A stretch of 64,000 bases of DNA from Lingula anatina (Eukaryota > Animalia > Brachiopoda). Position 1 is the first letter of the stretch, and each line of letters starts with the position of its first letter. The notes below the pieces were generated by a model, which was given only the letters and a program-made list of their open reading frames with translations, ran no database searches and was not told the origin of the DNA. The stretch lies in NCBI GenBank assembly GCA_051362555.1, contig CM120640.1, positions 4,526,001 through 4,590,000 of the forward strand, read 5' to 3'. Below, piece by piece: positions 27,302 to 63,035 of the stretch. The translations under genes and the position numbers were made by a program.

Positions 27302-29621
27302 CTATACGCAAGGGTTCATAAAGAAACTGATGGTTAACTGGCAATCTAAAGTTCTGGTCTCAGAGTCAAAGAAATAAAAAACATGTACTTATCTGAGTTT
27401 TTTTCACATTTCTTCGGGCCTGCATGGATCACACTTTTTACACCTTTCACAACACAAAAATAGAAAACTTTCAGCTGATATTCTCTCCTAATCTTGCCAT
27501 CCTCATTTTTAAGTCCACAAGCCTTGATCTACACACCAAAGTGTATAGACCTCACACCTGCTGAACAAGAAAGAATGTTTTGTTATTCATGACAAATTTA
27601 TGAAGTACATGTATGTATACATGCACAGTTGCATAACAACCATTACCTTGTGGCAAAGACTTTACTAAATGGTTTGTTAAATAAGAATAGTTCTTTGTAT
27701 AAGATTCATATTTCACAATAAATACACTGTACTGTAAATGAAAATATAATAAATTCTTTTTAAACGCCAAAAGGATCGTTATGATAATTAGCTTGAATTC
27801 TGTGCTTGCCATCAGACCACATGACCTCCTCATTGATGGCTCTGTTATTAATGATAATCTGTTTAGAAATTGTTACAAAAAAAAAAAAAAAAAAAAAAAA
27901 AAACTTTTGATGTTGGGATGGATTCATTAACTATTGGTGAGAATGTAAATATTGTGTTTTTTTTTTTTTTTTTTGGGGGGGGGGGCCAAAATGAACACTT
28001 GATAGAATGGATCTGTTCAATGAAAAAAGGTGGTTAAGATCCAAATATCTTATCATAGGACCTGATCTGATAGTGGTGATTAATTAATGAGGTGTTAACT
28101 CCACAAGCTCACAGAAGCCAAAAGGAATATAGTAGCCAAATCAATTTGCACTTAATTAAATAAAGAATGTAAGTCTGACTTACCTGCAGTGACATAACTA
28201 CTGTACTCACTTGTCACATTTTTATCATTATCTCTACCAGCTAGCAGAGATCGCTAACTGGTTGTTAATAACTGTAATGGTTCACTGGCAATCTGAAGTC
28301 CTGGTCTCAGCGTTAAAGAAACATCACTTTTCTTACCTGAAATTTTTTTCACTCTTCACCCATTTCACAACACTAACAGAAAAATACAGAAAACTTACAG
28401 ATATGGCAATGGACATGCCCTATGCTATAGAGATCAACAGTTTCAAACAGGTTTATAATAAAATACACTGCAAGTTCCACATCCTTTAACTCTTTCGGTT
28501 AAGGATATATAAGGATATACAGTATATTTATTCCTAATTATAATCCAGAAATTTCATTATTTAACTTAGACTATTAGTCCCCTCCCTGCTGATAATTCGC
28601 AAAAAATAAATATATATTATCATGTTGCACACATTATTGTAGCTTTCTTTGGTTCTGGTTACTTAAGTCAAAGGTTTGCAGTTTAAATGATCTAATTGGA
28701 CTTTTAAACACGTGCATGATACAAGCAACTGTGTTTTTAAACAGAGCCTCGTTGTGGAATCCACCTTGAAAATGGCGACCTTGACCCGATTACTACCTCG
28801 AAGGGTGTATCACCAGAAAATTCAATAAAACTTCTTTCTGGTATAAAAGTAAGTTTATTTTTACTATGCAAAACCCAAGTGCGATCTCATAGAGGTTTGC
28901 CATGCGTCCATTTCGGTCCATTTCTGCCCATTTCGGTCCATTTCGGTCCATTTCTATCCATTTCGGTCCATTTCTATGTTTTAAAGGACCCGATTAAATG
29001 TTCAAAAGTGTACACTACTAATTTAGAAGTTAAGTGTGAGGCCTGATATTTATAAGTACCAGCTAGTACAGTAACTTAGATCTACTGGGTAGTCTATAAG
29101 TATGAGGCAAGCTTGAACTGTTCAAGTTTGGATGAAACTTCAAAATAGTGCTTGTACTTACCCGTAAAAATGCAAAATTTTAAAATGCTAATGGTATCTC
29201 CATGAGGTAGATGTTCTATAAATGAGGGGCAAATACAGCGAGGAACTGCATTCCTTGCTTCACTAACTTTCGGAATTGCTCTCTTCATGTGAGCCCAAAA
29301 TGGTTTTTTCTCCAAGCGTACTATTTCTTCTTTCTTAGATATCTTTTTTCTTAAATGAAAATTGCCTGAAAACCAAAGTGGACATATTTTATATATAATC
29401 ATAGACACGTATATCTATTTAGCAAAAATGAAGTTTAATTATCATGCATTTTAGCTGTTTTTAATTGGTAATGGTTTGGGTTTATGATACACCGGCGTCA
29501 GGTCAAGGTCATTGCATTTCCGCATTGGCTCAGATTACAATCGATGATCAGAATATGGTTCAACTCGTTTTTCAGAAAAGTTGAATCAAAAACTAAGTGG
29601 AGAAGTCTTATTATCGAAAAA

Positions 29622-32600
29622 ATGGATCTGAAAGGGCGTATAGTCATTTATACCATAACAGGTTGCCCTCACTGTTTACGCGCCAAGTCCAAATTACGAG
29701 AACTAGAACTGCCGTACACGGATGTCAATTTGGACAATTTTCCACAATGTAGAGAGCCACTCGCGGAGAGGACTGGCAAGAACACAGTTCCGCAGATCTT
29801 TTTTAACGCAACACATATTGGCGGCAATGATGATTTTCAAAAGCTTGTAAGTAATGATGCAAGGCCCGTTATTAAACTACCTGTATGTGCTCGATTTAAT
29901 GGCGTTGTGTGTGGTTCGTAGAGTGGAGAGGGAGGGGAGCAGACGATAGTCTTACTGCGGAACAGTAAGTAAGTCAGTATAGATGTAATTTGTGGTCTTC
30001 TTGACCAAACAGCCAGGCAGGTAAGATATGTGTCTAAATTTAGTGAATTTTATGCAGAATCTTGACAGCCGTGACGGAAAAATGATGAAAGTTATAATTA
30101 TAAAAATAGACTATAAATTATTAGTTTTTTTAAAAAAAACTGAGTATCATTTTATTTACAGGTACGTGAAGATTAGGGGTGTACCTAATTACCGTCGACA
30201 ACCGAGAACAATCGAACACTACCGAACACAAGCACTAATTACCGTCCACACAACAGTCTACAAGCAATAAATACCGCCCACAAGTGTCCTCCCATATGAA
30301 ATAGTTGTAAAATCAACTAATAGTTAGAAATTTAACACAAGATGGTGCTTTATTGAAAAAAAAAAAAAAAAAACGTCATGGACGCGGTCATGGACGCGGG
30401 TCTGCAGACGTTTTCAAACGGAGAACCACACTCAATTGTCACATTTGTCGCATTGAAAACTACGTTAAATGATGTTAACTGTTGTATTCTAGGCTTCCAA
30501 AATGCAAAAAGGGGAAAAAACGTTCATAAGTAGGCCCTATACAGTTATACATATGGCTAGGTTGCCTTTAGATTCAACAAGTGTTCAAGGTGACAGCCGA
30601 GCGTGCAGTGAACGGGCTCTGTACGTGTAAAAGCTACATTAGTGCACTGAATGCGGTTATTTCAAGCAATATCAGATGAGAAATAAAACAAATGTTTATT
30701 GACAATTCAGGTCTGACATATGTGCATAGCAATAGCATTAGTCGGTGTTACTTTTCTGTCAAAACCTCGATCATTTTCTAACATGTGAAAACTTAACAGT
30801 GCACTAATGTAGCTTATACACGTACAGAGACTGTTTTCGGCACGCTTGGCTGTCACGTTTAACGTTTATTTAATCTAAAGGCAACCTAGTTATAACAATT
30901 ATTATTACAAAAGTGAAAATCGTTTTACGTCGTTTTCAAAACGTCCACAGCCCCGCACCTGTGACCTCTTTCAGGGCCGTATACGTTTAAGCACCATCTT
31001 ATGTTAAATTTCTAACTATTAGTTGATTTTACAACTATTTCATATGGGAGGACACTTGTGGGCGGTATTTATTGCTTGTGGACTGTTGTGTGGACGGTAA
31101 TTAGTGCTTGTGTTCGGTTGTTCTCGGTTGTCCTCGGTTGTCGAGGGTAATTAGGTACACCGGAAGATTAGACTGTATTGATAATGAAGGTCCACTAACT
31201 GTCCATAAGATATTTGAGTAGCTCAGCAGCTGTGCCACATTTTGTGGACATATAGTCATTTGGAACAAAGAAAGCCATAATATGGTATAATATATGTACA
31301 ATGTAGTTGCTCTGTGTACATACTGGGGAACTTTTTTTAGACTGTATTATTTGGAGTGTACTTCTTGTGAAGAAAGAAAAAATGTACATATTCATCTACA
31401 TTGTACCACACAGGGTACATCTGTGTAACCCCCTTGATGAATACTTCCATAAATCTAGTTTTGTTTTCTGAGGCCAGCACACTTGTATAATATTTTTATA
31501 TAATATATTCATAACATGACTGTGATTAAGATAATAAGTCAAAGCAAACAAGGTGCATATGTTGCTACTCCTCCTCCCCCCCCCTCCCCTTTTTTCTGTC
31601 AGAAGATGCTAAAAAATGGAGGATGGATCAACAAAGATAATTAGGAAGACTGTCAGAAAATATCTCCATGTCCGCCCCTGTATAAAGTAAATGAGACTTT
31701 TAATTTCCATGCCCCTCTTTCTCCCCCTTCTCCCCCCCCCCCCCCAAAAAAAAAAAAAAAAAAAAGTCACATAAAAGGAAACTTGATTTTTCTTCAGGTA
31801 GAGGAAAGAGAAAATTTTGAAAAGCTTGTAGAAGATGTGAAGAACACCACCCCTCCCCCAGAGGCTCCAGTTCCACCAGACCCCAGCACTGCTGTGGAGC
31901 AAGATCAAGATAAAAGTAAAAAAGGTAACAAAACCCCAGGTTTGTGTGTCAAGGGAAGCTTTGTTTTCACAAAATGGAAAAAATTGCTTTGTTTGGATTA
32001 TTTGGAAAATGTAATAGAGAAATAAATGTCATAGGAATTTATCTGAGGTTTGGTGTTAAAATATTCATCTTGTCTAATGCAGCAATGAAAAATATGACAG
32101 AACTTCACTATGACGAAAAAAGGTGGAGGACAGGAGAAAGAGAATGTTAGGTTTGTGAGATTGTGGGAAGGATTAGGACTAATTTGCTTTACATTTACAT
32201 TTAATATGTTGCAATGGGGGACTGGCTTGTTTTTAATTTCAGAGAATTTTGATATGAGTAATATCTTTTATTTTCTTATTTAGATGAAAGCAGTGGTTTT
32301 TCATGTGAGCCTGATGAATATGCAAAACTTGTTAAAGAAATTAAGTCCAGTGATATTATACAGAACCACCGTGCTGGCTTGTTTACAGTCCACAAGAATT
32401 CTTTCAGTGGAAATGACTTGGTAGATTGGATTGTAAAGGCAAAGGCTATTGGTGGGTAATGGTCTCCAGCAGTTTTTATTGTTTTGCATTAACATCTAAC
32501 TTCAATAATAGAAGGATAATCATTGCTCTCTGGGCATACAGTTACCATGAGGTAATAGTTAGTGCTGATTAAAGATGGACTTGGTGGGGATGGCAAGAAA

Positions 32601-35600
32601 GGGGCCATATATATTCTGCCTCACACCCCTGCCTTCCTTACTGGTCTACTTCACTAAAAAAGAAGGAAAAAACTAGCTTTGTTAACAGCTGCAAGAAAAA
32701 TGTTTACAAATCACTTTGTCATTACAGTAATTTTACTTTTCATGGTTCTTTTATTCCCTGAAATTCTCAGTATTTTGTACATGTCATTCCTCCTCTTGAT
32801 GTAGCTCAGATTCTCTATTTGTTTGGTCTAATTTGTGTCAACGGGGGCGTCTCGATAGTCCGAAGGTTCATTGGTCCAAAGGTTCATTGGTCCGAAAAGT
32901 GGTAACATTTTCATCGATTTTTTAATCAAGGGTTCATTGGTCCGAAGGTTCTATAGTGAACATTCGGACCAATGAACCTTCGGACTATCGCTATGGCCCC
33001 GTGTCAACAGCCTCCCTTGTTTCAAGGTGCTGACCTTTTTTTCATGAACATCAGAATCACCTCTATTTATTAGCTAAGAAGGGATTTTCCGGTTAGTTTT
33101 GAAACTTGGGGTGGTGAACGACATTATTTCTCAAGGAATTTCTCTAATTTCCACTTTGATTTACTCTCCATGCTGTATTTTACATTATACAGATCGTAGC
33201 AAAGCCATTGAAATGGGCCAGCAGTTGGTAGACAGGCACTATGCTCATAGTTTGAGTAAACACCCAGAATTTTTGGATAACCCGAGCAGCTTCTACCGCC
33301 TGGTTGAAGATGAAGAGACCAGTGCACTGAATGTTGGTGCGGGGTCAGAGTGCTTGGCCAGGCCAGGTTAGACAACATGAGTTTTTTTTTTTTTTTTCTA
33401 TCTTTTTTCTATCTACAATAAAGTTTAAAACCTGAGCTGTTTAGGAAGGTGTGGAGAAAAATGAAAGAGCGGAGATTTCACACAAGCCCAACCCACATAA
33501 TGGTCGTTTCTTAATATAGGGCATACATGTAGGTTCTGATACAGTAGACGTGTCCCAACAGCCCTGGGCTTTTGAAATTAATAATATTGTCATTAAGGCA
33601 CCTACCATCAAACCCCAAATTAACAATAATCAGTTAACCATCAGACCAGATCTAAGAACCTTCTTTATGATGTCCAATATCAATTTAAATTTTTTGGATA
33701 AATGATAACTTACCAAAATCGAATATTACTTATTTTCATTGTGCATTCTGGCATTTTCTACTAGTTAAACCTTAAAATTGTATATGCAATTGTCATTGTC
33801 ATATTGGTTGCCATGTCAACAGTGACATGGTATTTGTTTACTATTTAACTTAAATTCCAAGTACCAAGAGTACCAAGTACCAAGAGTATTTCCCACTTCA
33901 TATTCAGTTAAAAAATTCATGATAATCTGTAAAAAAATAATTCAAACTGTTACCATAGCAACAGCTATCATAATGACGTTTTCCATAGCAACAGATACAT
34001 TAGAAGCAATTATTTTTGTTTTTAGTGATGGCACATTTTTCAGAATCATTTTCATCCAAAAGTAACCTTTGGGCAGTGATGCTGAAGCCTTAAGGTTGTA
34101 AAATAAAAAAAAACAAGGCAGCAAAGCTGTCAAATGTACAGACAAAAAGCAGGAAATAACTATGCATAAAATAGGCTACTGTCAATTCTGATGCAAAAGT
34201 ACATTATGTTAAACTGCAAATTAAACATCAAATTTTAATTATGCTCAACAGGTAATACCAATGTAAGTAAAATGTGTAACAAGCATAAGGCTTCAGGCCC
34301 ATGGCAGTTCAAGTTCACACTTTGAAAATGTATAACTTCCAGAAAAAGAAGCCAATTAGACTGCTTTTGCAACTCAGGCTGCATTTTAGTCCTGTATTTC
34401 TTTTTTGAACGTTTGGCAATCATCAGTAACATGGTTTTCCCATAATGGTCATCATGGCAGCAGCACCCAAAATTGTGTTTTCTTCTATTCTGATGCAATA
34501 TTACATAATGGTTAACAGCATAATGACCGTCAATTTTTAATAATAAAATATACTTTTCATGGATTTTCAGAAAATGTGACTAGCATGGGTCTTCAAGCCC
34601 ATGGAACTTCAAAGTCACACCTTGAAAATGCCAATATGTGAAAAATTAAATTTTCACAAAAAAAACTGTTTAACTAGCAGAAAGAATTACCAAACAGACT
34701 GCATTGCCTACTGAAGCTGTATTTTAGTCCCATGTTTCTTTCCTGTAAGTTTGAGAACAGTAAGTGACATGATTTTTCTTAAATGGTCATCATGGGAGCA
34801 GTGCCCAAAATATTTTTTTTCCAAATTTTGATGCAATATTACATAACGTTTAACAGCATAATGACCATCAATTTTTAATAATAAAATATTAGTATTATGG
34901 ATATTCAGAAAATGTGACTAGCAAAGGTCTTCAGGCCCATGGAACTTCAAAGTCACAACTTGAAAATGCCAAAATGTAAACAAGACAGCACTGTTCTGAA
35001 ATGTTTGTTTTTTTTTCATTTTTAACACTTTTTTAACATAAAACAAAATTAACAGTTTACTGCCATTTTTATATGATCAACTAAGAAAATTGATGAGATG
35101 GGAAAATATCAATAGAACAGTGTCAAATGTCCAATTTCCTCCATTCTGAGTTTCTGAACATAGTGAATGATTGAATCTTACAAACTGTAATGATATGAGT
35201 TTATTTCCATATTTGAAAATTTATTACACAATACACGATAACAAGTTTACCATCATTTTTACAAAATCAACTAACAATGTTGTAAAGATGCAGGAAATGT
35301 CAAACAAACACTTTGACTTATCTTATTAATTAAATAATGAAACTGTTAACATGCCTAAAAATTAAATCTGAGGAAATGTGAAACAAGACAGCACTATTCT
35401 GAAATGGGTTTATTTCCATTTTAAACACTTTTTTAACATAAAACAAAATTAACAGTTTACTGCCATTTTTTTATGATCAACTAAGAAAATTGATGAGATG
35501 TGAAAAATATCAATAGAACAGTGTCAAATGTCCAATTTCCTCCATTCTGAGTTTCTGAACATAGTGAATGATTGAATCTTACAAACTGCAATGATATGAG

Positions 35601-38600
35601 TTTATTTTCATTTTTGACACCTTATTACACAATACACGATTACAGGTTTACCATCATTTTTACGTAATCAACTAACAATGTTGTAAAGATGCAGGAAATG
35701 TCAAACAAACACTTTTACGTATCTTATTTAATTAAATAAAGAGACTGTTAACATGCCTAAGAATTGAATCTGAGGAAATGTGAAAAAACAGCATAACTTA
35801 TAAAATAATGGTCCGATTATGCTATTTTCGAACTTGACCTGCGTTTTAGTAAGATTGATTACTCCTTCGAGTTTCATGACAACAGGCCTATGGGTTTTCC
35901 TTGAAATGTGTTAACAGTTTTGCATATATGCTGAAAAGTGAAAAAACAGCATAACTTATAAAATAATGGTCCGATCATGCCGATTTTCGAACTTGACCTG
36001 TGTTTTAGTAAGATTGATTACTCCTGTGAGTTTCATGACAACAGGCCTATCAGTTTTCCTTGAAATGTGTTAACAGTGTTGCATATATGCTGAAAAGTGA
36101 AAAAAACAGCATAAATTCTACAATAATGGCCCGATCATGCTGATTTTCGAACTTGACCTGCGTTTTATGAATATTCATCAGCTCTGTAAATATAAAGCCA
36201 AAAGGTAAAACTGTCTTCCACTTATGGTGTTAACGTTGAAAGTGCTCGGCGACGGCGACGACAGACGCAGGTGATGGCAATATGTACAGACACATCTGTG
36301 TCTGTACATAAAAATAGTATTGATCGCTATTGATATTTAGCAACAGTTGCCATGGAAATAATGGATAAATTACAGAAAATTATATCTTGTCAGATTCTTC
36401 TTGGCATAGTGTAACTTTACAGAAAATTTCAAATGGATATTTTACCCCATTCAAAAGTTATGCCAATTTTGTTTAATTGTTTGGGCAATTAGGTGACACT
36501 TTTGGCTTCCACTGTTACCTATGCTTGCATACAAGACTTTTTCAAAATTTTGTGGCCGACTAGCATTCTTTTAATTTAAAACTTTTGATTGGCTTGCTTG
36601 ATTTTCAAAAAATAAAATGTTTTGGAAAGCTCATGAATTTCTCTGAGGTAAGATCATTTTGGCTGACATTTATGTTACTATCAAAGTTGACCTGACCTCC
36701 CTACTTCTAAACAATGAAGCTGAACAAGTGGCACCTCGCCAGCCTACTAACTTACGCTTAGCTGGAGGCCTAGCAGTTCGATTAGATCTACTATAATAAA
36801 CAAGTAGTTAAGTTGTTTTAGTAAAAAAAATTGCATCAGTATTTTTGTCACGAAGAATAAAGAAAATTAGACATCGCATAAAACTTGTTATTTTTCGAAC
36901 GCCATTCGTAGACAACATTGCACATAGAAACATTACTGGCTGTGGGAAGACGTATTTTTTTCTGAAAACGGTTTCGTGGTGGAGCTGCAAATTTCTGTTA
37001 CATTTTGTTCAATTTTTTAACTATGTTTGTTTTCGTATTGAAATGCCCAGGTCTCATCACTCTTCTCGTTGGATAATTGCTTTGGCGGTAGACGATAAAC
37101 AATGATAACATAGCAGATGTTTTATAGTCGCAAATGTACGAGGGACGATCAGTAACATTGTATCAAAATTGTCTGTGGCGGCTTCTCTGATCTAGGAAGT
37201 AGGATCAAGTTTGGCTCCATCCAGTCTGACATCGTTTTCAGCCAGACTGTCAATCAAAAGTGAAACATGAATTTGCTGCCACCACGCGCTGTCTCAGAGC
37301 AGATGGACCAATCAAGGCCCAGTCTCAGCACGTGGAGGAAACAACAAGTCGTTGTCATTTTCACAGAGAGGGTCATTTAGAGGGCTTCAACAGCAACAGA
37401 TAAGATCCACAATGGCATACGACCTGAATTCAAATTATTGCACCGACCCAAGGCTTCTCGATGTTGACTATATCTTGAACCTGCCGCGTTTCCAGGACTT
37501 GAATGGGTAAAACATTGCACTTCATCCGATTTTAATTGCGCATTACAATAATTTTTTGATAAGAATTTTGGTATAATTTTGCGGTTAACCTCGAGTCAGA
37601 TATAGTCTGGTAATTTGTGCATTTCTTGCATTGTGGATGTTTTCTTAAAGTGTTATATTTTGATTTTTTTAAGGGGTTTAGAAAATTTGCAGACTGGATT
37701 TCTGCCTTTCACCCCAATGACAGCAATCCCCCCTCAGGACAGCCTTGCAGTCGACGAAGTGCAAGAACTACTGCAATCAGTCCGTATTTCCGAGGAGACG
37801 GTGAATGGCAATACACCCTTGGCCAGACTTCTCAGGAAGAGAAGACACGGCAAGACCAAGACACCCACTCGCGTCTGCGTGTTTTGCAGAAACAATGGAG
37901 AAGAGCCCATAATCTACCGGTCTCACGTCCTACGAGACGGCTTTAGAGTTACCTGCCCAATTCTCAGGGCATACAAGTGTCCCCTGTGTGGAAAGACAGG
38001 GGACACTGCACACACTATCAAATACTGCGCCCTGTACAATGGTGAGGAAGTGAAAGTGAAGAATTGATAAGTGAAGAACTGATACGGACGAGAAAGATAG
38101 TGAACTGTTACTGCTGTCAGCAGCTGTACTAAACTGTGCGCAACATGTTTTTATTAACTCTTATTAGAGAACGTTTTTTTATTATGTCAAATCTAGCTTT
38201 GTTCTATATGGTTTGAAAGAGCAACACCTGCCCTTTCATATGATATAAAATGCAGGGGTTTACTATTAAATTTAATACTGAAAACGGGCCTTGATAATGA
38301 CCTTTTTGGCCCTGTTAACTTAGCAGGTTTTCATGTTTCGTGACTTGCTTGCTGTCGGTACCTAGAACTATTATATAAGCAGATGACTTCTGTGGGATTA
38401 TCTTAAGTAATCTGTTACTTCCCCCTTGAGATCTGTTGATTGTAAATTCTTTTACAAAGGGAGGGGAGTATTATGGTGAAGTCTGTGCAGCTGCACACAT
38501 TGTCTGGAAAAGAAGCAAGTGGTTCAAGTTCCAGATAAAAGTTTCATTGTACATTTTAAGTATTTTTCTTGACAGTAAACGTTTTAATATTGCTTTGGAA

Positions 38601-41600
38601 TGACAGTATATTTTAAGTATTGTGAAGATATGTTTTTACAGGAGCATCTTTTTTTTGGTGACCTTAAACATATTGGGCCTTTTAGGCTTGATAAAATTGA
38701 AATATTTCTAGTTTGAAGAGTAGATTCATTTGCTGTTTTAGATTTCAGTTTTGGTATTACAAGCTTATTTAACAATTTAAAATGTATAAGTACTGTGCTA
38801 TATTTTCCATTCCTGTGTTGATGCAAATTATTTTGAATTTTCATATCACATATACACTTTTGAGTGGTGTCAAGTCTACTTATTTCAACAAGGTTTCATA
38901 TTGATTTGTATTTCTGTCATTGTTGTGGAAGAAAGGTAATGTGTGGTCATTTTCTCCTTGTAATTGTTTGAACAGCCTTTATTAACAAGCTATCAAATTT
39001 GGTAGTTTTAACAGTTATGGAATTAAAGTAAGGAAAGATTGTGAGACAAATGATTTGATTTCATTTTCAGTAGTATGGGAAGTCCAGTCATTGCAGGTAT
39101 TTGTGCAATGAAGCTAGTTGAATAGATTTTATTTTGTGCCAAGTTAATACTGTTAGTTTTAATAATGTACATATTTGTATATAGGTGTAGTGTGCTATTT
39201 GTATGTTCATGATATTTTGTTTTGCATTCATGTTTTACCCTTTTTTCACACAGAATATTCTGTAGTTTTTGTGCTAAACGATGCAATTTGATAAGCTGAC
39301 ATGTTCCATGAGTGGTGCACTGGTTGTACGTAGGATAATAAAAAATAAACTTATTTTATTACTTAAATTTGTGTCAGTTCTCACATCTATTAATTCAGTT
39401 TCTTAAATTGATGTTTTTGGTTTACTGAGATAAAACTAAGCTGGTCTCTTTTCCTAAAATTACATTTGAGTGATAACTCTACATTACAGTCAAAACACTG
39501 TAAACAACTCGTAGAAATATATTCCATTTTACCTCAAATAAACTGCAGTTTTAGCAATTATTGAGAAATCTGTGCTTGCCATAGGACCACGCGACCCCCA
39601 TAGATGGCTATACTCTATAATTTCTTAAAGTTCTTCAAAAAAAGATAAAGCTCCATAAAGGGCTATACTCACATAATCTCTAAAAATTTTATTTTAAAAA
39701 AAGTTTTGGAAAAGAAAAGGGGAACTAACTTTAAATGTAGAGTTTAATTCATTAAGTATGGGAAAAGGGTCATTAACCCTAGGAAAATTTCATTTTTGAG
39801 CTAAAATGAACAGTTGTTATCCTTAAAATATGTATCATTTGAATGGTGTGTTCCAGTGTGGTTCTTATGAGCCAGTCACATTTCCTAGTTGGCCAGTGCT
39901 TGCGGAGTGCCTTAATTTCAGCTAGGAGGATGATGGCGGGTACATTGACATAACTGACCTTCACCCAATTCACAGAATTAACCACATCAGCCCTTCCTTT
40001 AAACCTAAGGCCCATTCCCAAATGAGACTATCGTTCTATGTAGATTGATCCAACTTTGTGGGGGGTCTCCCTGAATGCAATCAGATGAACATCCCTCCTT
40101 TCCGCATTCAATAGAATACAAGGAAAACCTATTGAGTCTACATAGGAAACGAGGAGGCATGTTTATCTCATTGCATTCAGCAAGAGTGCCCATGTAGTTG
40201 GGTCAATTTTAGTAGAAAAATAATTTCATTTGGAATAGGCCTTTAAACCCATAACCACTAACTCGAAGTGCAAATGACAATGAAGTAAAATAATGTTTGG
40301 TTTTTATCAAATTCAAAATTGAACAAAACAGTTGCAAATTTACATCTAAATTTTAATCATTAAAGTTCAATTTATATCCATGAATAATTATATCCATGGA
40401 AGCAAGCTTTCGGTCTATTCAGCTGTCTATTTAGCAGTCGATTCACTAGACCTTGATCAAGATGGCATCCACTACATGTTACTGCTGCCACATGTAGGTT
40501 TAACTAGTAGATACAGAAAACTAAATGGAGAAGTGTTAGGAGGCATTGTAACTCTAGCCAACAATGCCAGAAAGTGATGCTTACATAAATTAACAAGTAG
40601 CAATTAATAAAGTGATAAATTTGAATGCACATAATATAAATTAGTGAAGGTTTCTGGAATATAAACCTACTAGGCAAAACTTGCTAAACAAAGAAGTTTC
40701 TCATCTTTTACTTCAGCGGTGGAATTGGCCAGAGATCTGAGAAAGTTGATACTGAAGCTATATGGCAGTTTCTTGTCTGAAGATGGCAAGGTGTGTATGA
40801 TGTAGAGCTGCAAATCTAATCCTGGGGTCTGCTTTGCATAATAAAACAGAAGCCCAAAAGACCAAAACTTAAGTCCACTTTGACCTGGGATAAATTAGTA
40901 TTAGTAACATGGAAAGAGGAATATTGCATCTGCTTTTACCTGGGGGCTGACTACCATGAGTCTTGATTTTCAAACTTTTTGCATACCAAGATCAATACCC
41001 CCCCCCCCCCCATCACAATTTTTTAAATAGGAACTTGAGTCTCAGGCCAGCACTTTAATTTAACTACTTTGAATGTTTCTTGAAATGAAGTAGAATTAAT
41101 TTTTGACAAAAAGTTTAGAACAATTTTTTGGGCTTCAGGTTTTTATGTGAAACCAGTGCCTGGTACTTATACTAGTTATTTTTTACATGTACGTGTATTG
41201 TTGTTAACAATGATTTTCAATAACTAGGTTTGAACAAAATTTATATTACTTGTTACAACTCAAACATGAACATATATTTATGTGTGTGTGTTTGTGTATT
41301 GATAAGTCTGTCATCTATTAGGCAGTTGATTACAAGGGCATTGGTCAAAGTGAGGACTTTCAGAAGTATCTTGAGATGACCAGAGACCTACAAAGGGTTC
41401 AGATAGAGGATGCTAGTCGAGAAGAAAAGATTGCCTTCTTCATCAATATCTACAACGCTTTGGTCATTCATGCCACTGTGAAAAATGGGCCAGCTGTCAA
41501 CATTTGGCAGAGATACAAGGTAAGCCTGGAACATCATGAATTAAAAAAGTTATGTGGATAGTCGTACAAACACATTAAGATACTTTTTAACCCACCCACC

Positions 41601-43080
41601 CACCCAAAATAAAAATTTGATATTAATAATAACAACATTGGGGGGAGAATGTGTAGACAGAGGGCGGTGCAGAAATGGAAAGTGTTTACCCTGCACTTTA
41701 AAATAAAAGCACATGCCCCATACACATACAATTACTCCCAGATTTTGTGTTCCTTGAGCAGTTCAATACTAGTATATCTTGATACTCGTTTCAGTTTTTT
41801 AACAAGGTACGATACATTATTGGTGGTTATTCCTACTCTCTTCAAGACATTGAAAATGGTATTCTAAGAGCTAATAGGAAGGGTATTGGTAAGTCCAAGT
41901 AACATTGTTGCTTGTTTTGAATAGGAAAAAATGTGGCTAATGAGAGATTATGTATGAAATATTTCATTAATACAGAAATTGTGTTTCATTATGCATGAAA
42001 TATTTCATAGGTACAACTTGTAAAAATGAGCTTTATATAATACAGGATACTAAAATGGGCTCTGCCCAAAAATTTAATGGACATTATCCAATGGTAATAA
42101 CATGCAAGTACATTGTAAACCAATCATATTATTTTACCAGAATCTCAGACATGACAAGACATTTAGTAATGCAAGTGCTTTTCTTTAACTTTCTTCTAGG
42201 TATGCTATTTAAGCCATTTGGAAAAAGTGATCCCCGCTTGAAAGTGGCCTTACAAAAGCATGAACCACTTATCCACTTTGCCTTGGTGTGTGGAGCAAAA
42301 AGCTGTCCACCAATTAAGACCTATACATCTGAGGTAAGTTTTTGTTCAAGAGACACCCCAGTGTTACTGTTATTATGCATACATTTCATGTCTTCATATT
42401 TGTTCCATGTACACACTGAAAAATTTTAAGAAACATGAAAATATTTTTTAATATTTTTAAATATTATATTAACAATAGATTTTATAATACAAAATGTGAA
42501 ACCTACAATTTATTCTGGTGTTTGATAGGATGGTGATATGGGTATTTTTATTTTTCTGTTGCAGCGCATTTATGACCAACTGAACTTGGCAGCAAAGTCT
42601 TTCTTGGAGGGCGATGATGGGTGTTCAGTAGACATGGAAAACCATCATGTCAAGTTGTCCAAAATTCTGAAGTGGTATGGGGAAGATTTCGGATCAAATG
42701 ACGAAGAGGTATTTAAATGGCATGTTTAAGACACTTAATGGTTATTAATCAGGATACTTTTATGTGGTGACGTTTTACACAACATTTAATTATATTGTGT
42801 AGATTAGTTACCAGCTATGTTTTATGGCAGTAAAATTTTCTACTGGACTTACAATTGAGACCATTTAACAGTGTTAGTTTAAATCATATTTAGCAGTGTT
42901 AATGTTCTCTTGTGTACTGTAAGTTAAATTATTCTTTTACTTTGCATGTTGTAGGTTTTGCTGTGGGTCCATGAACATTTAAGAGAAGGGGACAAGAAAT
43001 CTCAAATTGCAGAACTTCTTGCAGAGAAATCATTTAAAATATCCTACTGGCCATATGACTGGGCAGTGAATGCAAAATAA
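29622..43080 (+). CDS. Glutaredoxin-DEP-DUF547 multidomain protein (class IV glutaredoxin-like), 487 aa; exons 29622-29846, 31798-31924, 32284-32451, 33193-33366, 40717-40790, 41322-41519, 41795-41888, 42200-42333, 42565-42708, 42955-43080
   Basis: Grx motifs CPHC, TVPQIF, GGNDD; DEP-like [13 protein letters not shown]...AIEMGQQLV...FYRL; DUF547 motifs [69 protein letters not shown]. Ten exons sum to 1464 nt with consistent phases and GT-AG sites. Confidence 0.92.
30177..31162. mobile_element. Mutator-type (MULE) palindromic MITE, 986 bp, 9-bp TSD
   Basis: GGGTGTACCTAATTACC ... GGTAATTAGGTACACCG; ~180-bp near-identical TIRs plus inner imperfect symmetry; TSD GAAGATTAG at 30168-30176 and 31163-31171. 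Confidence 0.88.
32843..33000. mobile_element. Small MITE with subrepeated TIRs, 8-bp TSD
   Basis: CGATAGTCCGAAGGTTCATTGGTCC / GGACCAATGAACCTTCGGACTATCG; TSD GTGTCAAC at 32835-32842 and 33001-33008. Confidence 0.85.
34113..36314 (-). mobile_element. Second HINE-type element (different family) built from stacked tandem duplications
   Basis: 5' hairpin TATGTACAGACACA-TC-TGTGTCTGTACATA (36281-36310) next to a GAC/GGCGAC microsatellite; 3' subTIR ATGTACAGACA (34134-34144) next to small hairpin GGCAGC-AAA-GCTGTC; inserted in an A/T run. Internal units ~300-340 bp x~2.5, ~403 bp x2, ~158-160 bp x~3. Confidence 0.75.
37300..37411 (+). promoter_or_regulatory. Putative nanos proximal promoter (CCAAT box, E-box)
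   Basis: GGACCAATCA (NF-Y-like) at ~37305-37314 and CACGTG at ~37329-37334, about 80-105 nt upstream of the ATG, in a locally CpG-rich patch. Confidence 0.4.
37412..38067 (+). CDS. nanos: Nanos-family CCHC zinc-finger RNA-binding protein, 162 aa; exons 37412-37506 and 37674-38067; nested in intron 4 of the Grx-DEP-DUF547 gene
   Basis: [51 protein letters not shown] is the nanos double CCHC finger; acaATGg start at 37412; phase-2 intron GTAAAA(37507)...TTTTTTTAAG(37673) joins the exons in frame. The first exon is less certain than the finger exon. Confidence 0.93.
39337..39380 (+). terminator. Probable nanos polyadenylation signal
   Basis: Two AATAAA hexamers (39337-39342, 39344-39349) followed by T/GT-rich TTTGTGTCAGTT, ending a ~1.3-kb U-rich tract after the nanos stop codon. 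Confidence 0.55.
40009..40241. mobile_element. PIF/Harbinger-like MITE; diverged relative at ~48232-48470
   Basis: GGCCCATTCCCAAATGA ... TCATTTGGAATAGGCC with TA-rich flanks; GTAGAACGATAATTTCATTGGGAAT at ~48440-48464 resembles the same terminus. Confidence 0.65.
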
Positions 43081-43758
43081 ATAGAGATATCTATATATAG
43101 TTAAACTTCAATTATATAAATGGAACATTACTTTTCTCAGTTGCTGTTAAATGGATTTCCTTGTAGAGCATTTAAAGGATTTTATGATAACTTTCACAGC
43201 GAAGACGCCGAGAAGACATGATCTGAGTTGAGAATATATAGCCTGAACTCAAGATTTGCAGTACTATGCAATAGAAAAGAATCTATACTTCTTAGATGTA
43301 AAAAAATTATACTTAAAACATTCTTGTGGTTTCTCAGGACTGCAGTTGTAAAATTATACAATTTTGGATGTTATATTTCAACGTTGTTATGTAAAATTAT
43401 GTCATATTACAATTTCTAAAACATTAATTGGTTCTAAAGACCATTCCATGTTCAGGTTGAAGAATATTTTTAAATGATGTTGTTAAACCTTTGTCTTTTG
43501 GTTTCTTTTAAATTATTTCTTGTTCTTGTTTTAGGTAAATGAATAAAAAACTATGAATGCCATGAATGAAAATTTTTGTTTATAATCTTTTCTTGCATCT
43601 TTTATAATCAAAACGTCTCAAAATTTATTTCTAACGAATAATCTATCTGTACACAAAGGAATGCAAAACAACTTTAAAATGTTGCAACTAAAATAAATAG
43701 GCAAAAATTGTTGAGTGGTAGAATTCATGGGGTTTCAAGTCCTGCAAAAGCATAATAT

Positions 43759-46700
43759 TTAATTCATTGTGGCATTAAGTGGTCTCCAATCTTGTTGAAT
43801 TGGGCTTTTTGAAGTGTATCTGGGTCCTGGTATCCATGGGCAGATAACAAAACACTCTTCCTCAGTGTGAGGGGAATATGCTCTAAATACTTGTCGAAAG
43901 CTATGACCTTGAGGTATGTTTACAGACTTCATGGTGTCCCATTGTTTCCAGGCAGTTCGCACTTGCTTCTTCCTCAGGGCTGAGTAGTATTTATTTACAC
44001 ACACGGATACCTGTGTTAAGAAGTTGAATTCAAATATTACATTAAGCAGATCCAACATAACTTAGTTTTGAAACAAATTTAACAAAAAAAAACAAGAATT
44101 TTAACTTACAAATGTCTAAAATATAAAAGGTTATCTAAAATATACAATACAGAAAAGTTACCTTTTTCCTGATGTTTGGCAAATCATCTATAGTTGGATT
44201 TTTTATTTCCCTCTTACTCAAACGCAGAATGGGCAGAGGGACCTGGTTGCGCTCAATAGGTGGAGCTGTCCAACCTCTGCATGTTCTCGAGGGTTCACGA
44301 TGTGGTTTGCAACCTGAAAAAAATTCCAGAAGAGATATTTGTAAAAATGAGCAAATAGAGGAAAATTTAATGCAGCAATCCTACTAATATACAACTGTTC
44401 TCGATGATATTAATCCAAACTAAACATGTTCAGAAAATACTTTATATTCTTTATGTACATTACCTGTCTTTGGTGCATTTATAATTTGAAATGAAATGAT
44501 TTTAAATTCAACCACATCCTTCATATTAAATTGAACTATATCCTTCTTAATTTTGCTTAAAATTTCAATTTTGCTAATTGTAAACCTGGACAATTGGGAT
44601 AAGAAGTGAGAATCGGAAAGTTATCTATACCTGCAGTAGGGGTGGTGCTACTCCTAGATGTCTCATGTACAGGATCATCAGTCGAAGGTGATGATGGCGG
44701 GCTAGGAGTACATTCAGTCAAAGGAGGTGGTATTGATGGGCGACGATTATCACGTTTACGTGTACTACTTCTAATAGGGAAATCAACACCATTTGCTGCA
44801 CTGGCTGAAAATTTTAGATAAGTAGAGGATCAGAGAGGTGATATGCCTATGGGTATTGTACCACCAGCTGGAGTAAGCGCATTCATATGGAAAACAAAAA
44901 CAGGGACATCACCTACAGTGTTGTGCTTGAAAAGCTCTACAAAATGCAACAAACATGAGGTCTCTAGCATTTACAGTTCCAGAATTAGAGAAAGTTTTCA
45001 GTTTCGGCATCTAATGGGTGCTTCTCCCTTGAAAATGTACTGATTGACCCCAAACTCAAGAAGATGAAAGATGACATTAAATATAACACCTGCCCATAAC
45101 ATTATTAGGTTAGGTCTGTGTAGCTTCTGAAAATCAGTAAATATAAAATTTATTTTGCAAATTTTTGTGTAATACAAGCCTGAACTTTTTTTTTTAATAT
45201 AAATACATGGTATAGTGAGGATGATAAAAACAGATAAGTACTAAAATTCATACAATCAAATAACACAACCAACATCAGAACCTTTTTTTTTTTTAATTTT
45301 CACTTAAATAAAAAAAACTTGAAAAAAGCTTGAGAAAAAAAACAGCCTTGTAATGATAAAACTCAAGACAGTTGAGAGAAAGTCACCTACCAAGCCTGCT
45401 CAGCTGTGGTAAAAGATGTACCTCAGGCAGCATACAAACTACACTTCCCTTCTCTGCCATGGTACGGACTGCCTATAAATTACAATAAATTATTTCTTCT
45501 AAATACTCAATAATGGTAGTTTTAGGGTATCTTCAGAGTGTCACTTATTCTAGTAGGGATCGTAAATATAAACTAAACAACTTACTGCTATACAAAATTA
45601 TAATAATAAATAATAAACATTATGATGAACAATTAAGACATTTTTAAATTAATACAATGAAGCATGTAGCATATTCACCGTCAAATCCGCGTTATCTGCG
45701 TAAATAGCTGTCCTCCTTGCACGCATGGCACCCTTGGATCCTATCTGCTCAGTTGCAAAAGTAAGCTTAAGTTTAGCCTTCTTAAAATGTTTCCCATCTT
45801 TGTCTTCATCTTCAAGAATTTTATCTCGCTTCTTTTTAGCTATGTCAGGACTATGCTTCTTTGCAGAGGATCCAGCTGGGACAACGAATAACAAAGGTTT
45901 GGCATAGGGTGAATCTTGGTCCTTTGCAATGGCTTGCATGTCTTTTAAATGCCGTGCTAACTGCCTGTCCGTCAGCCCAATTACTCTGGCACCGGCTGTG
46001 TAATGACTGATAACATGTGGTACTTGCCTGGCTTTCTGAGCGTAATAACGTGTTATCTCTCCAACTGAGTTCTTCAGCGCAAATTTTGTGATGGCAGAAA
46101 AAAACAAACTTTGACGTTTGCTATATTTTTCTCTTTTCTGTAACCTTGCTCTATCAGGATCTGCATTATAAAAAAAAAATTAATAGAAGTGCAGAAGAGG
46201 GCAGTTCCAGTAATGTATGTTTACTGTATATGCTGGGTATATATATGTTATAAGACAAAGCCAATCACCAAATGGCTGACCATATAAAAATTAGAGTTTT
46301 ATATTTTTCTTTTATTCTTGAATTTTTCATTAGGTACATGTACATACAAAGACAACATGCATGGTCTAACAGATTTCATGTCATACAACACAGTGTTGTT
46401 AAAAATCACTCACCAGTAAAATATGAAGCTAACGTACCTTCAGCCAGCATATCCAAATAGCGGTCTGTGGCAGTCATATGGTACAGAAATTCATCAAAGT
46501 CAATCTCACCACTGCCATCATTGTCTAGTTCTTTAAGAACACTGCTGATTTCTTCCTCAGATAATTCTACGTCCAGTTCCCTCATCAACTTGAAGAGTTC
46601 CCTACTATCTAAGCTTCCTCCTCGATCTGAGTCCAAGAGATCAAACACCTGAATTCAGAACAAAAAATGATATATGTCACTCTAAAAGTGAAAAATATAA

Positions 46701-47647
46701 AACATTTTATCATACCCATCCAAGAAACTAAATATCAAAATAATGGATGCATGTTACTTACCATTTGAAAGGTAAACAGTGATTTCTATTAAAATTGTTT
46801 TTTATCTTTCTATTGTCAACATACTGTACTTTAATTATAAAAATGATAATTCTACCATTTTATCACTTATTTATTTGCCCACTTCTTTCAAGTTACAAAC
46901 CTCCTTAAACATTCTTATCTGGTCATCACTCAATTCTTCATACCATCCTGGCTTAACTGCACCTATTGGAGTGTTCAATAATATTAAAATTATCAAGAGA
47001 CTGTAAGGATATTGGTCAAGGGAGTCAGCCATAAACATGCATTTCATCAGAGGTTATAATTAAGTTTTGTGTTTTAATGTTTTGTGCAATTCTTATTCTA
47101 ATTTTTAGAATGAATTACATGCTAAATACTTATTCTAATACAGTAATAGTACATGTAGTAGTGGTACGGACAAATCGATATTGCTATAAATGTAATGTCA
47201 CTAAACCGCCACTTGGACCACGTTACAAAAATGAAAACGATGACAAATTCAAAGCGCTTGGTCTTAAATCCAAACTTTTCATAGAGAACAATTCATACCA
47301 AAAGAGCCTAAAATAACAATACAAGATTCACCAACCTTTATCATCACCGTCGTCCTTGTCCATCAAAATTTCTTCAACAAACTGAATCTGCAAAAAAAGA
47401 GGGTTATTGTTTAGTCATATAAAAATATATATATTTAAAATAAACAAAATGCGACTGTCATACAATCGGGAATAAAGCTGCAAAATCACAATAATATTAA
47501 AACGGACAGAGAGTTTGGTGACAAAAAACCTCGTTCGAAATAACTCATACACAAGGTAAATGTGATATCAAATCCACCTACTTTTCGCTCTTTCTTTCCA
47601 TTTTCTTTGTTCTTTGACCCTTTCCCCTTCTGGCTGTTAGATATCAT
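43759..47647 (-). CDS. Uncharacterised EF-hand calcium-binding protein, ~510 aa; exons 47647-47582, 47387-47336, 46962-46901, 46648-46438 (alt. donor 46414), 46160-45679, 45472-45391, 44804-44631, 44313-44162, 44010-43759
   Basis: Calmodulin-like pair ELSDDQIRMFKEVFDLLDSDRGGSLDSREL...DNDGSGEIDFDEF; nine exons join in frame (1533 nt) with GT-AG sites; S/P-rich linker. Recalls EFCAB3/SPATA21-type proteins but orthology is unverified. Confidence 0.82.
44821..45140 (-). mobile_element. Diverged, array-less copy of the 9601-12190 HINE family
   Basis: 44821-44890 is the reverse complement of ~12120-12190 (3' subTIR and hairpin); ~44930-45130 matches the reverse complement of ~10060-10260. Confidence 0.8.
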
Positions 47648-47738
47648 TATTCCAACTTTTAGAATGGTACTGCGTTATATCTAAGTTATTGTTGTGCCCA
47701 TAATGTACCTCATCATGTGCAAATCGCACATGGTAGAT

Positions 47739-47792
47739 GTAAACAACGTATGACGTCATAATAGAGCTTGCGCATGCGTATACTTTACGTCA
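47739..47792. promoter_or_regulatory. Motif cluster upstream of the EF-hand gene (forkhead, CRE x2, NRF1)
   Basis: GTAAACA 47739-47745, TGACGTCA 47751-47758, TGCGCATGCG 47769-47778, TTACGTCA 47785-47792, 90-145 nt upstream of the minus-strand ATG at 47647. Confidence 0.55.
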
Positions 47793-50289: not shown

Positions 50290-51837
50290 ATGACTGGTAA
50301 AGGAGGGAAAATGGACTATACCATCAATACAGCCATCAAAAGAGGCTTTTTCCAACAGGTGCGTTTCCTTATAGAGCTTGGGTCCGATGTGAACGGAAAA
50401 GACGAAGATGGTTTAACGCCATTGATTCTGTGTGCAATGATAGAGGAAGAGGAATGGGGAGTTGGTCTTTCGAGACTCTTGTTAGAAAAGGGAGCGTCGG
50501 TAGGTTTTCGTGACAAGCGAGGACTTAATGCTCTACATTACGCCTGTCTTTACCAACGTCTAGAACTGGTTCGTGTTTTTCTATGCGCAATTGACTACGA
50601 CCTAAATCAGGGAGATAAATTTGGAAATACGGCGTTACATTACGCAGTTTCTGTTGGTAACGTTGACATTACACGGTTACTGTTAAGAACACTGCATAAA
50701 TATGGAATGACGGTGGACAAACCCAACCGACGTGGATTTACTCCTCTCATACAAGCATGGAGCACTGGTCGCGTTACCTGTGCACAAATTCTTGTAGACG
50801 AGGGGCACGCAGACCAGGAGACCGCCGACAAAGTAGAGGGGAAAACTGCTAAAGAGTGGGAAACTGAAGTTTTAGCCAAAATGAACAAACTTGTGATAAA
50901 TCCCAAAGTAAGACGCCATAGACCAAGTACCGCGTTACGCGTGTCATCTGCGCCAATTTTACGTCGCCGGAGACCAAGCACCGCGATGAGCTTAAGGGGT
51001 AATCGGAATGCACCTGACAATGGACTCCTAGTCAATGTAGAAAAAACAGATATGTTAATCCGCAGTGCCAGTTTGTCAGACTTGAGAAATAACCCCGAAT
51101 TCGTTTTTAAACTATCTGCCGTGGACTATTTCAGTCAAGAAAACATGAATGACTTCCAACCCCAGTATGGGGAGGGTTATGACGGTTTTCAAGGACATTA
51201 TCAAAGACTAGCCCTAGATGGCAACTGGAAAGGCGAAGTGAAATCTCTTTTGCACGAATTTCAGTTCCAGTGCTCTCCCTCTTACAGGGACAGTATAAAA
51301 CCACCTCCTCCGCGACAATACATTCGTCCCGCCACGCCCCCTAGTCAACTCTCCGACGGTGAAGTACCAATGTCTGATCGGGGAAGCGCAACTGGACGTA
51401 GGTCAATTGCTGGACCCCGTGGTAAGAAATTAGAACGTCAAACATCCGACGCGAATATGTCACGCCGCGGGTCTGTGGTAAACCTTGGTCCAGCAGGGAG
51501 ACGGAAAAATTCCATCGACGCCGGCAATTTGCCTCCTGGTTCCAGAGGACAGCGCAGCAAAAGAGGAAGTGTTGACATTGTACAAGAAGAGTGTGATTCT
51601 AGTCAAAGTGGGGGATCAGCAGGAAACAAGTCTGGGCTATCAGATTCCGCCAAAGCTAGTACAAATAGAAAAGAGACCGAGAATGCCAAACTTCCCCCTC
51701 GACCCGTAAGCAGAACTGGGCAGTATCGGAATAACATACCAGTGGTCAAGGAAACAAAAGTGGATAGTGATCGGACTCAACTGGATAACGTTTATGAAGA
51801 AGATGACCCAAACTATTTGTCACCATCACGGGCCTAG
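50290..51837 (+). CDS. Single-exon ankyrin-repeat protein, 515 aa (ANKRD34/ANKRD63-like architecture)
   Basis: Uninterrupted 1548-nt ORF; N-terminal ankyrin repeats (DGLTPLILC, RGLNALHYAC, FGNTALHYAV, RGFTPLIQA) followed by a long R/S/P-rich disordered tail with RRxS/RRPST motifs. Start could be Met1 or Met8. Confidence 0.9.
   Translation: MTGKGGKMDYTINTAIKRGFFQQVRFLIELGSDVNGKDEDGLTPLILCAMIEEEEWGVGLSRLLLEKGASVGFRDKRGLNALHYACLYQRLELVRVFLCAIDYDLNQGDKFGNTALHYAVSVGNVDITRLLLRTLHKYGMTVDKPNRRGFTPLIQAWSTGRVTCAQILVDEGHADQETADKVEGKTAKEWETEVLAKMNKLVINPKVRRHRPSTALRVSSAPILRRRRPSTAMSLRGNRNAPDNGLLVNVEKTDMLIRSASLSDLRNNPEFVFKLSAVDYFSQENMNDFQPQYGEGYDGFQGHYQRLALDGNWKGEVKSLLHEFQFQCSPSYRDSIKPPPPRQYIRPATPPSQLSDGEVPMSDRGSATGRRSIAGPRGKKLERQTSDANMSRRGSVVNLGPAGRRKNSIDAGNLPPGSRGQRSKRGSVDIVQEECDSSQSGGSAGNKSGLSDSAKASTNRKETENAKLPPRPVSRTGQYRNNIPVVKETKVDSDRTQLDNVYEEDDPNYLSPSRA

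Positions 51838-61325: not shown

Positions 61326-63035
<1,710 letters not shown>

What the first reader, a model, noticed from the sequence alone, without database searches (positions are those of the whole stretch)
33367..40716. A complete nanos gene nested on the same strand inside intron 4 of a glutaredoxin-DEP-DUF547 gene
Seen: host exons 4 (ends 33366) and 5 (starts 40717) join in phase 1 across a 7.35-kb intron, by far the longest in the gene. It contains a two-exon nanos ORF with its own promoter-like motifs, 167-bp intron, ~1.3-kb U-rich 3'UTR and double AATAAA, all on the host strand. Established: nanos proteins are translational repressors of germline/multipotent cells, and most nested genes lie antisense to their host. 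Inference: every host pre-mRNA must read through the nanos promoter, splice sites and poly(A) signal. Host transcription could therefore silence nanos in soma, and use of the nanos poly(A) site could truncate the host to Grx-DEP without DUF547. Direct splicing of host exon 4 (phase 1) to nanos exon 2 (phase 2) would be out of frame. I do not know of a description of this arrangement but could not search.
Basis: partly seen in the sequence, partly recalled or inferred. Interest (0 to 1): 0.82.

Follow-up and report, generated by a model that had tools for sequence, protein, structure and literature searches.

The report
Nanos nested inside a brachiopod gene
In a brachiopod (lamp shell), an expressed, spliced copy of the germline regulator nanos sits on the same strand inside an intron of an unrelated glutaredoxin-family gene; RNA reads show the host splicing cleanly across it, so it is likely an ordinary nested gene with its own promoter rather than a regulatory switch.

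Summary
The host is a 10-exon, 487-aa Grx-DEP-DUF547 gene with a 7,350-nt intron 4. Inside lies a two-exon nanos identical to XP_013399388.1 (Lingula anatina). Reads join host exon 4 to exon 5 in 4 of 4 runs and splice the nanos intron in 3 of 4. In stranded libraries both genes read in the same direction.

The proposed regulation is not supported in bulk RNA. Host and nanos are co-expressed (rho 0.23, 7 runs). Host depth after versus before intron 4 is 1.22-1.26 whether nanos is on or off, and no chimeric junction was listed. The intron position is shared with teleost isoforms. The nanos promoter is a CpG-rich patch in a CpG-poor host body.

Best reading: an independent nested gene, likely inserted into an old intron and tolerated because the host splices over it. 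Same-strand nested genes with introns are a known minority class. My searches found no description of this nanos case. Interference in germ cells only, as at mouse H13/Mcts2, is not excluded. The age of the nesting could not be tested.

The parts
29622..33366 (+). Host exons 1-4 (29622-29846, 31798-31924, 32284-32451, 33193-33366): glutaredoxin domain (CPHC motif) and DEP domain
   Evidence: RNA coverage in 4 of 4 runs
33367..40716 (+). Host intron 4, 7,350 nt, GT-AG, phase 1; position shared with teleost DEP-less isoform boundaries
   Evidence: exon 4-5 junction reads in 4 of 4 runs; alignment
34112..36314 (.). 2.2-kb multi-copy repeat with internal tandem arrays (338, 400 and 159-nt units), a CGGCGA-type microsatellite and a terminal 13-bp hairpin; HINE/Helentron-like
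   Evidence: hundreds of reads with diverse loose ends at 34111/34112 and 36314; compared with PMC7492417 passages
36700..37411 (+). Nanos promoter and 5'UTR: CpG-rich patch (o/e 0.84), CCAAT box at 37308, no TATA match; start likely about 37320-37350 (inferred from coverage)
   Evidence: coverage
37412..37506 (+). Nanos coding exon 1 (residues 1-32), with a degenerate DY-x-L motif
37507..37673 (+). Nanos intron, 167 nt, GT-AG, phase 2
   Evidence: joint reads 9, 16, 9, 0 in X1, X2, X3, X8
37674..38067 (+). Nanos coding exon 2 with the tandem CCHC zinc fingers (37876-38028), spacing C2-C12-H9-C7-C2-C7-H4-C
38068..39365 (+). Nanos 3'UTR, T-rich, two TGTANATA (Pumilio-type; motif recalled) matches at 39166 and 39176, AATAAA at 39337 and 39344; exact cleavage site inferred
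   Evidence: coverage ends at bin 39184-39357
40717..43080 (+). Host exons 5-10 encoding DUF547 and the C-terminus; AATAAA at 43542 and 43692
   Evidence: spliced reads

Best explanation
An expressed two-exon nanos gene lies on the same strand inside intron 4 of a Grx-DEP-DUF547 gene, and it likely works as an independent transcription unit that the host simply transcribes through and splices out. Shown: both genes make correctly spliced mRNA from the + strand, in the same libraries, and nanos is on in some samples and off in others while the host is on in all. Inferred: nanos starts from its own CCAAT-box promoter in a CpG-rich (likely unmethylated) patch inside a CpG-poor (likely body-methylated) host, and ends at the double AATAAA. 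Host transcripts likely escape the nanos signals because mis-splices are out of frame and would be degraded, and because exon 4-5 splicing wins over intronic poly(A) use; the intron has 12 other AATAAA/ATTAAA hexamers upstream of nanos. Inferred: nanos entered an old intron as a duplicated or relocated DNA segment, since it keeps an intron, and a separate repeat insertion adds 2.2 kb. The protein is predicted to be a working but somewhat divergent Nanos translational repressor.
For: Exon 4-5 junction in 4 of 4 runs; nanos junction in 3 of 4; both with first mate on the minus strand in stranded runs X1-X3. Host downstream/upstream depth ratio 1.24 in nanos-high X1 against 1.26, 1.22, 1.25 in X4, X7, X5. 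Host depth at 40760 per Gb: 7.4, 13.0, 10.3 in nanos-high runs; 11.2, 10.9, 6.3, 0.9 in the others (rho 0.23, p 0.61). The only loose end listed at the nanos acceptor is nanos exon 1. CpG:GpC is 33:44 over 36700-37673 against 49:185 in the non-repeat host body from exon 2 on (Fisher p 0.0003). Teleost DEP-less isoforms (P0045, P0062 against P0049, P0066) lack exactly the stretch between Lingula introns 2 and 4. All 8 zinc ligands are kept; 4 of 6 coding differences in the reads are synonymous (p 0.04 against a 25% expectation).
Against: Counts are low (6-26% of each run read, 1-23 reads at 40760) and the tissues are unknown and bulk, so a germ-cell-only effect would be diluted. Faint + strand coverage lies upstream of the nanos start (up to 1.6x in X1, 3x in one X2 bin). 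X7 has about 0.9x on the distal nanos 3'UTR with 0.04x on its coding part, which could be rare host polyadenylation at the nanos site or just 3' bias. Two loose-end rows were not shown and 113 joints were not shown. Methylation is inferred from CpG content only, and the CpG window was chosen after seeing the profile. The direction and date of insertion were not tested.
Confidence: 0.7

Rival explanations
1. Coupled host/nested switch of the H13/Mcts2 type, restricted to certain cells. In germline or multipotent cells, nanos transcription would stop host elongation and give a Grx-DEP product without DUF547. In soma, host transcription and gene-body methylation would keep the nanos promoter shut.
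For: Same geometry as mouse H13/Mcts2: a nested gene with a CpG-island promoter in intron 4 of its host, where nested transcription drives intronic polyadenylation (PMC13309782, abstract and Introduction). CpG-rich nanos promoter in a CpG-poor host. 12 poly(A) hexamers in intron 4 upstream of nanos. Faint intronic and 3'UTR-only coverage. Exon 4 read-through stops after 1 residue, so a truncated Grx-DEP protein is possible.
Against: No drop in host depth across intron 4 and no anti-correlation in bulk. Nanos is off in X5, where the host is weakest, and on in X1-X3, where the host is well expressed. The promoter's CpG richness argues against lasting germline methylation.
Confidence: 0.15
2. The nested nanos is a decaying or neofunctionalised extra paralog, and the canonical Lingula nanos lies elsewhere.
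For: Short (162 aa). One-residue deletion in zinc finger 1 (5 of 253 matched Nanos sequences have it, 238 are canonical). Ala after the last Cys (1 of 253; Pro in 217). The N-terminal motif matches the DYLGL-type motif of other hits only in part. End branch 0.69 against a median of 0.36.
Against: Intact frame, regulated expression, all zinc ligands kept, mostly synonymous variation. No second Lingula nanos was named, but those searches skipped lengths 229-284 aa or carried few names, so this is weak.
Confidence: 0.1
3. Assembly artefact: nanos was joined into the intron through repeats.
For: A 2.2-kb multi-copy repeat lies between exon 4 and nanos. The published genome is 1.6% heterozygous and short-read based (PMC4595640, passages). 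No DNA reads could be laid.
Against: No N in the window. Only 1.35 kb separates the nanos 3' end from host exon 5, with two short repeats of about 170 and 240 nt. Because exon 5 is spliced to exon 4 in mRNA, a gene directly upstream of exon 5 is inside the intron whatever happens at the upstream repeat.
Confidence: 0.05

Closest known systems
Same-strand nested genes of Drosophila (Lee & Chang 2013, PMC3814207; Assis 2016, PMC5174743; passages read)
   Same: Short, narrowly expressed gene in the longest intron of a broadly expressed host. Same-strand cases are about 29% of nestings, and when they have introns the median is one, as here.
   Different: Most same-strand nested genes are intronless (72%) and many are testis-biased young duplicates. 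Here the nested gene belongs to a deeply conserved developmental regulator family. Its age and tissue are unknown.
Mouse H13/Mcts2 host/nested pair (PMC13309782; abstract and Introduction read)
   Same: Nested gene with a CpG-island promoter inside intron 4 of a host, with intronic poly(A) signals available.
   Different: Mcts2 is an imprinted retrogene with demonstrated host truncation. This nanos keeps an intron, and no host truncation is seen in bulk RNA.
Nanos family (Pfam PF05741; Drosophila Nanos 5KL1/5KL8, Nanos 3ALR)
   Same: Tandem CCHC zinc fingers near the C-terminus with a basic stretch before them; long T-rich 3'UTR; E 3e-20 to 5KL1_B.
   Different: One-residue deletion in finger 1, Ala (Ser in some reads) instead of Pro after the last Cys, degenerate N-terminal motif, short protein.
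Grx-DEP-DUF547 proteins (zebrafish zgc:152951-type, sea urchin LOC593247, Aplysia LOC101862648)
   Same: Same domain order, 43-62% identity over the aligned length in 20 of 20 aligned homologues, shared exon boundaries with teleost isoforms.
   Different: Whether any orthologue hosts a nanos could not be checked; no eukaryotic genome context was available.

Membership tests
Nested (intronic) protein-coding gene, same strand | Host exons on both sides are joined in mRNA | tested here: met
   exon 4 sequence joined to exon 5 in 4 of 4 runs
Nested (intronic) protein-coding gene, same strand | Inner gene transcribed and processed on the host strand, wholly inside the intron | tested here: met
   coverage about 37270-39357, intron spliced in 3 of 4 runs, same mate direction as host exons
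Nested (intronic) protein-coding gene, same strand | Own transcription start, not borrowed host exons | tested here: inconclusive
   coverage rises near the CCAAT box and no host-exon loose end is listed on nanos; no cap data
Nested (intronic) protein-coding gene, same strand | Physical continuity on DNA | not testable with these tools
   only RNA runs were listed; no whole genome held; indirect argument
Nanos | Two CCHC zinc fingers, Pfam zf-nanos above cut-off | tested here: met
   81.8 bits against cut-off 27; 8 of 8 ligands
Nanos | Canonical spacing C2-C12-H10-C7-C2-C7-H4-C | tested here: not met
   H-x9-C in finger 1; shared by 5 of 253 matched sequences, so a tolerated minority form rather than an exclusion
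Nanos | N-terminal NOT1-interacting motif (name recalled; DYLGL-type in many hits, absent in many others) | tested here: inconclusive
   only a degenerate DY-x-L match at residues 18-22; no significant N-terminal hit among 254
Nanos | RNA binding, translational repression, germline or stem-cell expression | not testable with these tools
   sample tissues are coded; no assay
H13/Mcts2-type interference pair | Host truncated by intronic polyadenylation when the nested gene is active | tested here: not met
   bulk downstream/upstream ratio unchanged, 1.22-1.26 in 4 of 4 runs; cell-type-limited effect untested
H13/Mcts2-type interference pair | Intragenic CpG-island promoter switched by methylation | tested here: inconclusive
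   CpG-rich patch present; methylation not measured
Retrogene | Intronless coding sequence | tested here: not met
   167-nt spliced intron in the coding sequence
HINE (non-autonomous Helentron), for the repeat at 34112-36314 | Internal tandem arrays, microsatellite, terminal palindrome, A/T-run insertion, subterminal inverted repeats | tested here: inconclusive
   arrays, microsatellite, hairpin and A/T flanks seen; subTIRs not mapped; the microsatellite lies next to the hairpin here, whereas PMC7492417 places them in opposite flanks

The most novel reading that the evidence does not exclude
A brachiopod keeps its germline regulator nanos under an H13/Mcts2-like switch. An unmethylated CpG-island promoter inside a body-methylated housekeeping gene fires in germ or stem cells, cuts the host short to a Grx-DEP protein there, and is held shut elsewhere by host transcription. 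It would be an invertebrate case of a pluripotency gene controlled by its host's read-through, possibly an old spiralian arrangement.
Probability: 0.12. Interest if true: 0.68.

Novelty: new member of a known kind. Interest (0 to 1): 0.33.

Why it matters
It is an RNA-verified same-strand nested gene that carries its own intron, the class thought to be most selected against, and the nested gene is a key germline regulator. It gives a ready locus for asking whether invertebrate gene-body methylation or host read-through gates an intragenic promoter, and a synteny marker for tracing nanos paralogs in Spiralia. On present data it looks like tolerated genome architecture rather than a new mechanism.

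Tried and rejected
Whole-genome search for other nanos copies: no genome held. The look-up of sequencing runs: no RNA holder listed; nine raw-read runs were offered by species label, 7 of 9 were laid (X1, X4, X5, X7; X1, X2, X3, X8), X6 and X9 were not. One search was swamped by reads of the intronic repeat and did not display the exon 4-5 joint (113 joints hidden), so one search left out the repeat and read the junction from loose ends.

Two separate genes flanking nanos: rejected by junction reads and by full-length homologues. In-frame host-nanos fusion: rejected; exon 4 to nanos exon 2 stops after 2 residues, nanos exon 1 to host exon 5 stops at residue 52, and no such reads were listed. 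Simple retrocopy: rejected, it has an intron. Capture of nanos by the neighbouring HINE-like repeat: considered; the repeat's ends are sharp at 34112 and 36314 in many other copies, no flanking inverted repeat encloses nanos, so no support.

Tree of 63 zinc-finger regions (of 254 available; 74 columns): the query sits in an unresolved polytomy, no orthology call. The Lingula host protein itself did not appear among 72 hits; the tool warns this search is weak, so nothing is drawn from it. Earlier scan findings: nothing by relatives, words, sequence or genome; one search gave other same-strand nestings in other genomes only.

Literature: no paper describing this arrangement in searches for nanos + nested gene + intron, Lingula + nanos, nanos + synteny + brachiopod, the accession numbers and 'Lingula nanos' (0 papers), nanos genes/syntenic/paralogs, DUF547 + glutaredoxin + nanos; all judged from listings and abstract starts. 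'nanos' has 0 hits in the main text and in the one held supplement of the Lingula genome paper. Subscription papers and bioRxiv supplements were not searchable.
Full report
1. Observation. Building the gene models from the window gives a 10-exon host (29622-43080) with nine GT-AG introns and one open frame of 487 aa. Intron 4 (33367-40716) is 7,350 nt and phase 1; the next longest is 1,951. Pfam finds glutaredoxin on exon 1, the two halves of DEP on exons 3-4 (each half below the curated cut-off), and DUF547 on exons 6 and 8. A search with exon 6 returned 72 hits among 78 candidates, many being single Grx-DEP-DUF547 proteins of about 480-570 aa from sponge, molluscs, sea urchins and fish; 20 of them aligned at 43-62% identity along the model. 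Inside intron 4, 37412-37506 plus 37674-38067 encode 162 aa with zf-nanos at 81.8 bits (cut-off 27). This protein is identical to XP_013399388.1, 'nanos homolog 2-like [Lingula anatina]', so the nanos gene itself is already in the public annotation and the organism is very likely this brachiopod. The two AATAAA (39337, 39344) and the T-rich 1.3-kb 3'UTR are as described.

2. RNA evidence. Seven of nine offered runs were laid. On 36400-41599, reads hanging off the start of exon 5 carry window 33334-33363, the end of exon 4 (unique in the window), in X1, X2, X3 and X8 (6, 18, 10, 16 reads). So the host really splices across the whole intron. The nanos intron is spliced in X1, X2, X3 (9, 16, 9 reads) and not in X8. 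In the stranded runs host and nanos reads both have the first mate on the minus strand, which shows the same orientation directly. Nanos coverage begins in bin 37270-37443, near a CCAAT box at 37308, and ends at bin 39184-39357, at the double AATAAA. No cap or poly(A) tail was seen, so both ends are inferred. Nanos is high in X1-X3 (one study), faint in X4, and about zero on the coding part in X5, X7, X8, while the host is present in all seven.

3. Tests of the proposed regulation. (a) Silencing by the host: host depth at 40760 per Gb is 7.4, 13.0, 10.3 where nanos is high and 11.2, 10.9, 6.3, 0.9 where it is low or off; Spearman rho 0.23, p 0.61, n 7. There is no anti-correlation. (b) Truncation: the depth ratio of exons 5-6 to exons 3-4 is 1.24 in X1 and 1.26, 1.22, 1.25 in X4, X7, X5 (from the bins), so nanos activity does not measurably cost the host its 3' half. 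Unique intron sequence upstream of the nanos start is mostly under 1x (single bins 1.6x in X1, 3x in X2). (c) Chimeras: exon 4 to nanos exon 2 stops after 2 residues, nanos exon 1 to exon 5 at residue 52. The only loose end listed at the nanos acceptor is nanos exon 1 (2 rows hidden). Against my reading: counts are small, samples are bulk and of unknown tissue, three nanos-high runs come from one study, and X7 shows about 0.9x on the distal nanos 3'UTR with almost nothing on the coding part, which could be rare host polyadenylation there (about 5% of host depth at most) or 3' bias.

4. Promoter context. CpG observed/expected is 1.0 around host exon 1, 0.20-0.33 over the host body from exon 2 on (outside the repeat and nanos), 0.84 over 36700-37411 and 1.12 over nanos exon 1 and intron. 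CpG:GpC is 33:44 in the patch against 49:185 in the non-repeat host body (Fisher p 0.0003; window chosen after seeing the profile). Mosaic gene-body methylation is common in invertebrates (PMC8549274, passages); I found no Lingula methylome (listing). The simplest inference is an unmethylated promoter island inside a body-methylated housekeeping gene.

5. History. Teleost RefSeq isoforms lacking DEP (P0045, P0062 against full-length P0049, P0066; also P0047, P0048, P0075) lack exactly the stretch between Lingula introns 2 and 4. The intron-4 position is therefore shared between a brachiopod and fish and is very old. Whether nanos came in recently or is an old resident lost elsewhere could not be tested: no genome is held and no related window exists in the scan. 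The nanos keeps a spliced intron, so it is not a simple retrocopy. A multi-copy repeat with sharp ends at 34112 and 36314, tandem arrays, a microsatellite and a terminal hairpin fills 2.2 kb of the intron. It resembles oyster HINE elements (PMC7492417, passages) but nothing ties it to the arrival of nanos.

6. The Nanos protein. All eight zinc ligands are present and it matches Drosophila Nanos 5KL1_B at E 3e-20. It is mildly divergent: H-x9-C in finger 1 (5 of 253 matched sequences out of 254; 238 canonical), Ala after the last Cys (1 of 253), and only a partial match to the DYLGL-type N-terminal motif. No indel was listed in the coding reads, so the deletion is not an assembly error. Four of six coding differences in the reads are synonymous (p 0.04). 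A 63-row tree did not resolve its orthology. A second Lingula nanos was neither found nor excluded.

7. Assembly. No DNA reads were available. The window has no N, and only 1.35 kb with two short repeats separates the nanos 3' end from exon 5. As exon 5 is spliced to exon 4, a gene directly upstream of exon 5 is intronic. I put misassembly at about 5%.

8. Comparison with what is known. In Drosophila 71% of nested genes are antisense; same-strand ones are 72.5% single-exon, and the rest have a median of one intron (PMC3814207, passages; PMC5174743, passages). A case like this is thus roughly 8% of nestings (my arithmetic). In mammals over a tenth of genes host another, orientation is only slightly biased, and most pairs show no expression relation (bioRxiv 10.1101/2023.05.02.539096, passages). 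No description of a nested nanos or of this locus came up (listings), or in the Lingula genome paper's text and one held supplement.

9. Verdict. Real, RNA-verified, apparently unreported, and a new member of a known kind. Best explanation (0.70): an independent nested transcription unit spliced out by its host. Rivals: cell-type-limited interference switch (0.15), decaying or specialised paralog (0.10), misassembly (0.05). Interest 0.33; up to about 0.68 if a germline switch or deep conservation were shown.

Noticed in passing
P0045, P0047, P0048, P0062, P0075 against window 32284-33366: Several teleost homologues have DEP-less isoforms that skip the equivalent of host exons 3-4, giving Grx-DUF547; the Nematostella model P0021 also lacks DEP. 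In run X1, exon 2 depth (32) exceeds exons 3-4 (2-14), but depth is too noisy to call skipping in Lingula.
   Followed up: partly
window 34112-36314: HINE-like repeat; reads from its many genomic copies reach hundreds-fold depth in polyA libraries, mostly from the minus strand in stranded runs.
   Followed up: partly
window 23136-23386 and 28742-28995: 254-nt inverted repeats at 98% identity enclosing about 5.9 kb, with inner inverted repeats, just upstream of the host gene; likely a DNA transposon.
   Followed up: no
window 30178-31161; 32841-33002; 40006-40245: MITE-like inverted-repeat elements in host introns 1, 3 and 4.
   Followed up: no
window 8919-9329 (+): Exon of a neuronal calcium sensor / hippocalcin-like EF-hand protein with an N-terminal MG motif (family name recalled); a 146-nt tandem array follows at 10597-12042.
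   Followed up: no
window 43750-47400 (-): EF-hand gene converging on the host's 3' end, its last exons within a few hundred bases of the host poly(A) signals.
   Followed up: no
window 50278-51837 (+): Single-exon 519-codon ankyrin-repeat ORF in a long CpG-rich domain (47000-54500).
   Followed up: no
window 54653-54985 (+) and 62706-63035 (-): RNase H1 N-terminal domain exon and an Elongin-C/Skp1-like exon.
   Followed up: no
window 38029: The residue after the last zinc-finger Cys is Ala in the assembly and Ser in about a third to a half of reads in X1-X3; it is Pro in 217 of 253 Nanos sequences.
   Followed up: partly
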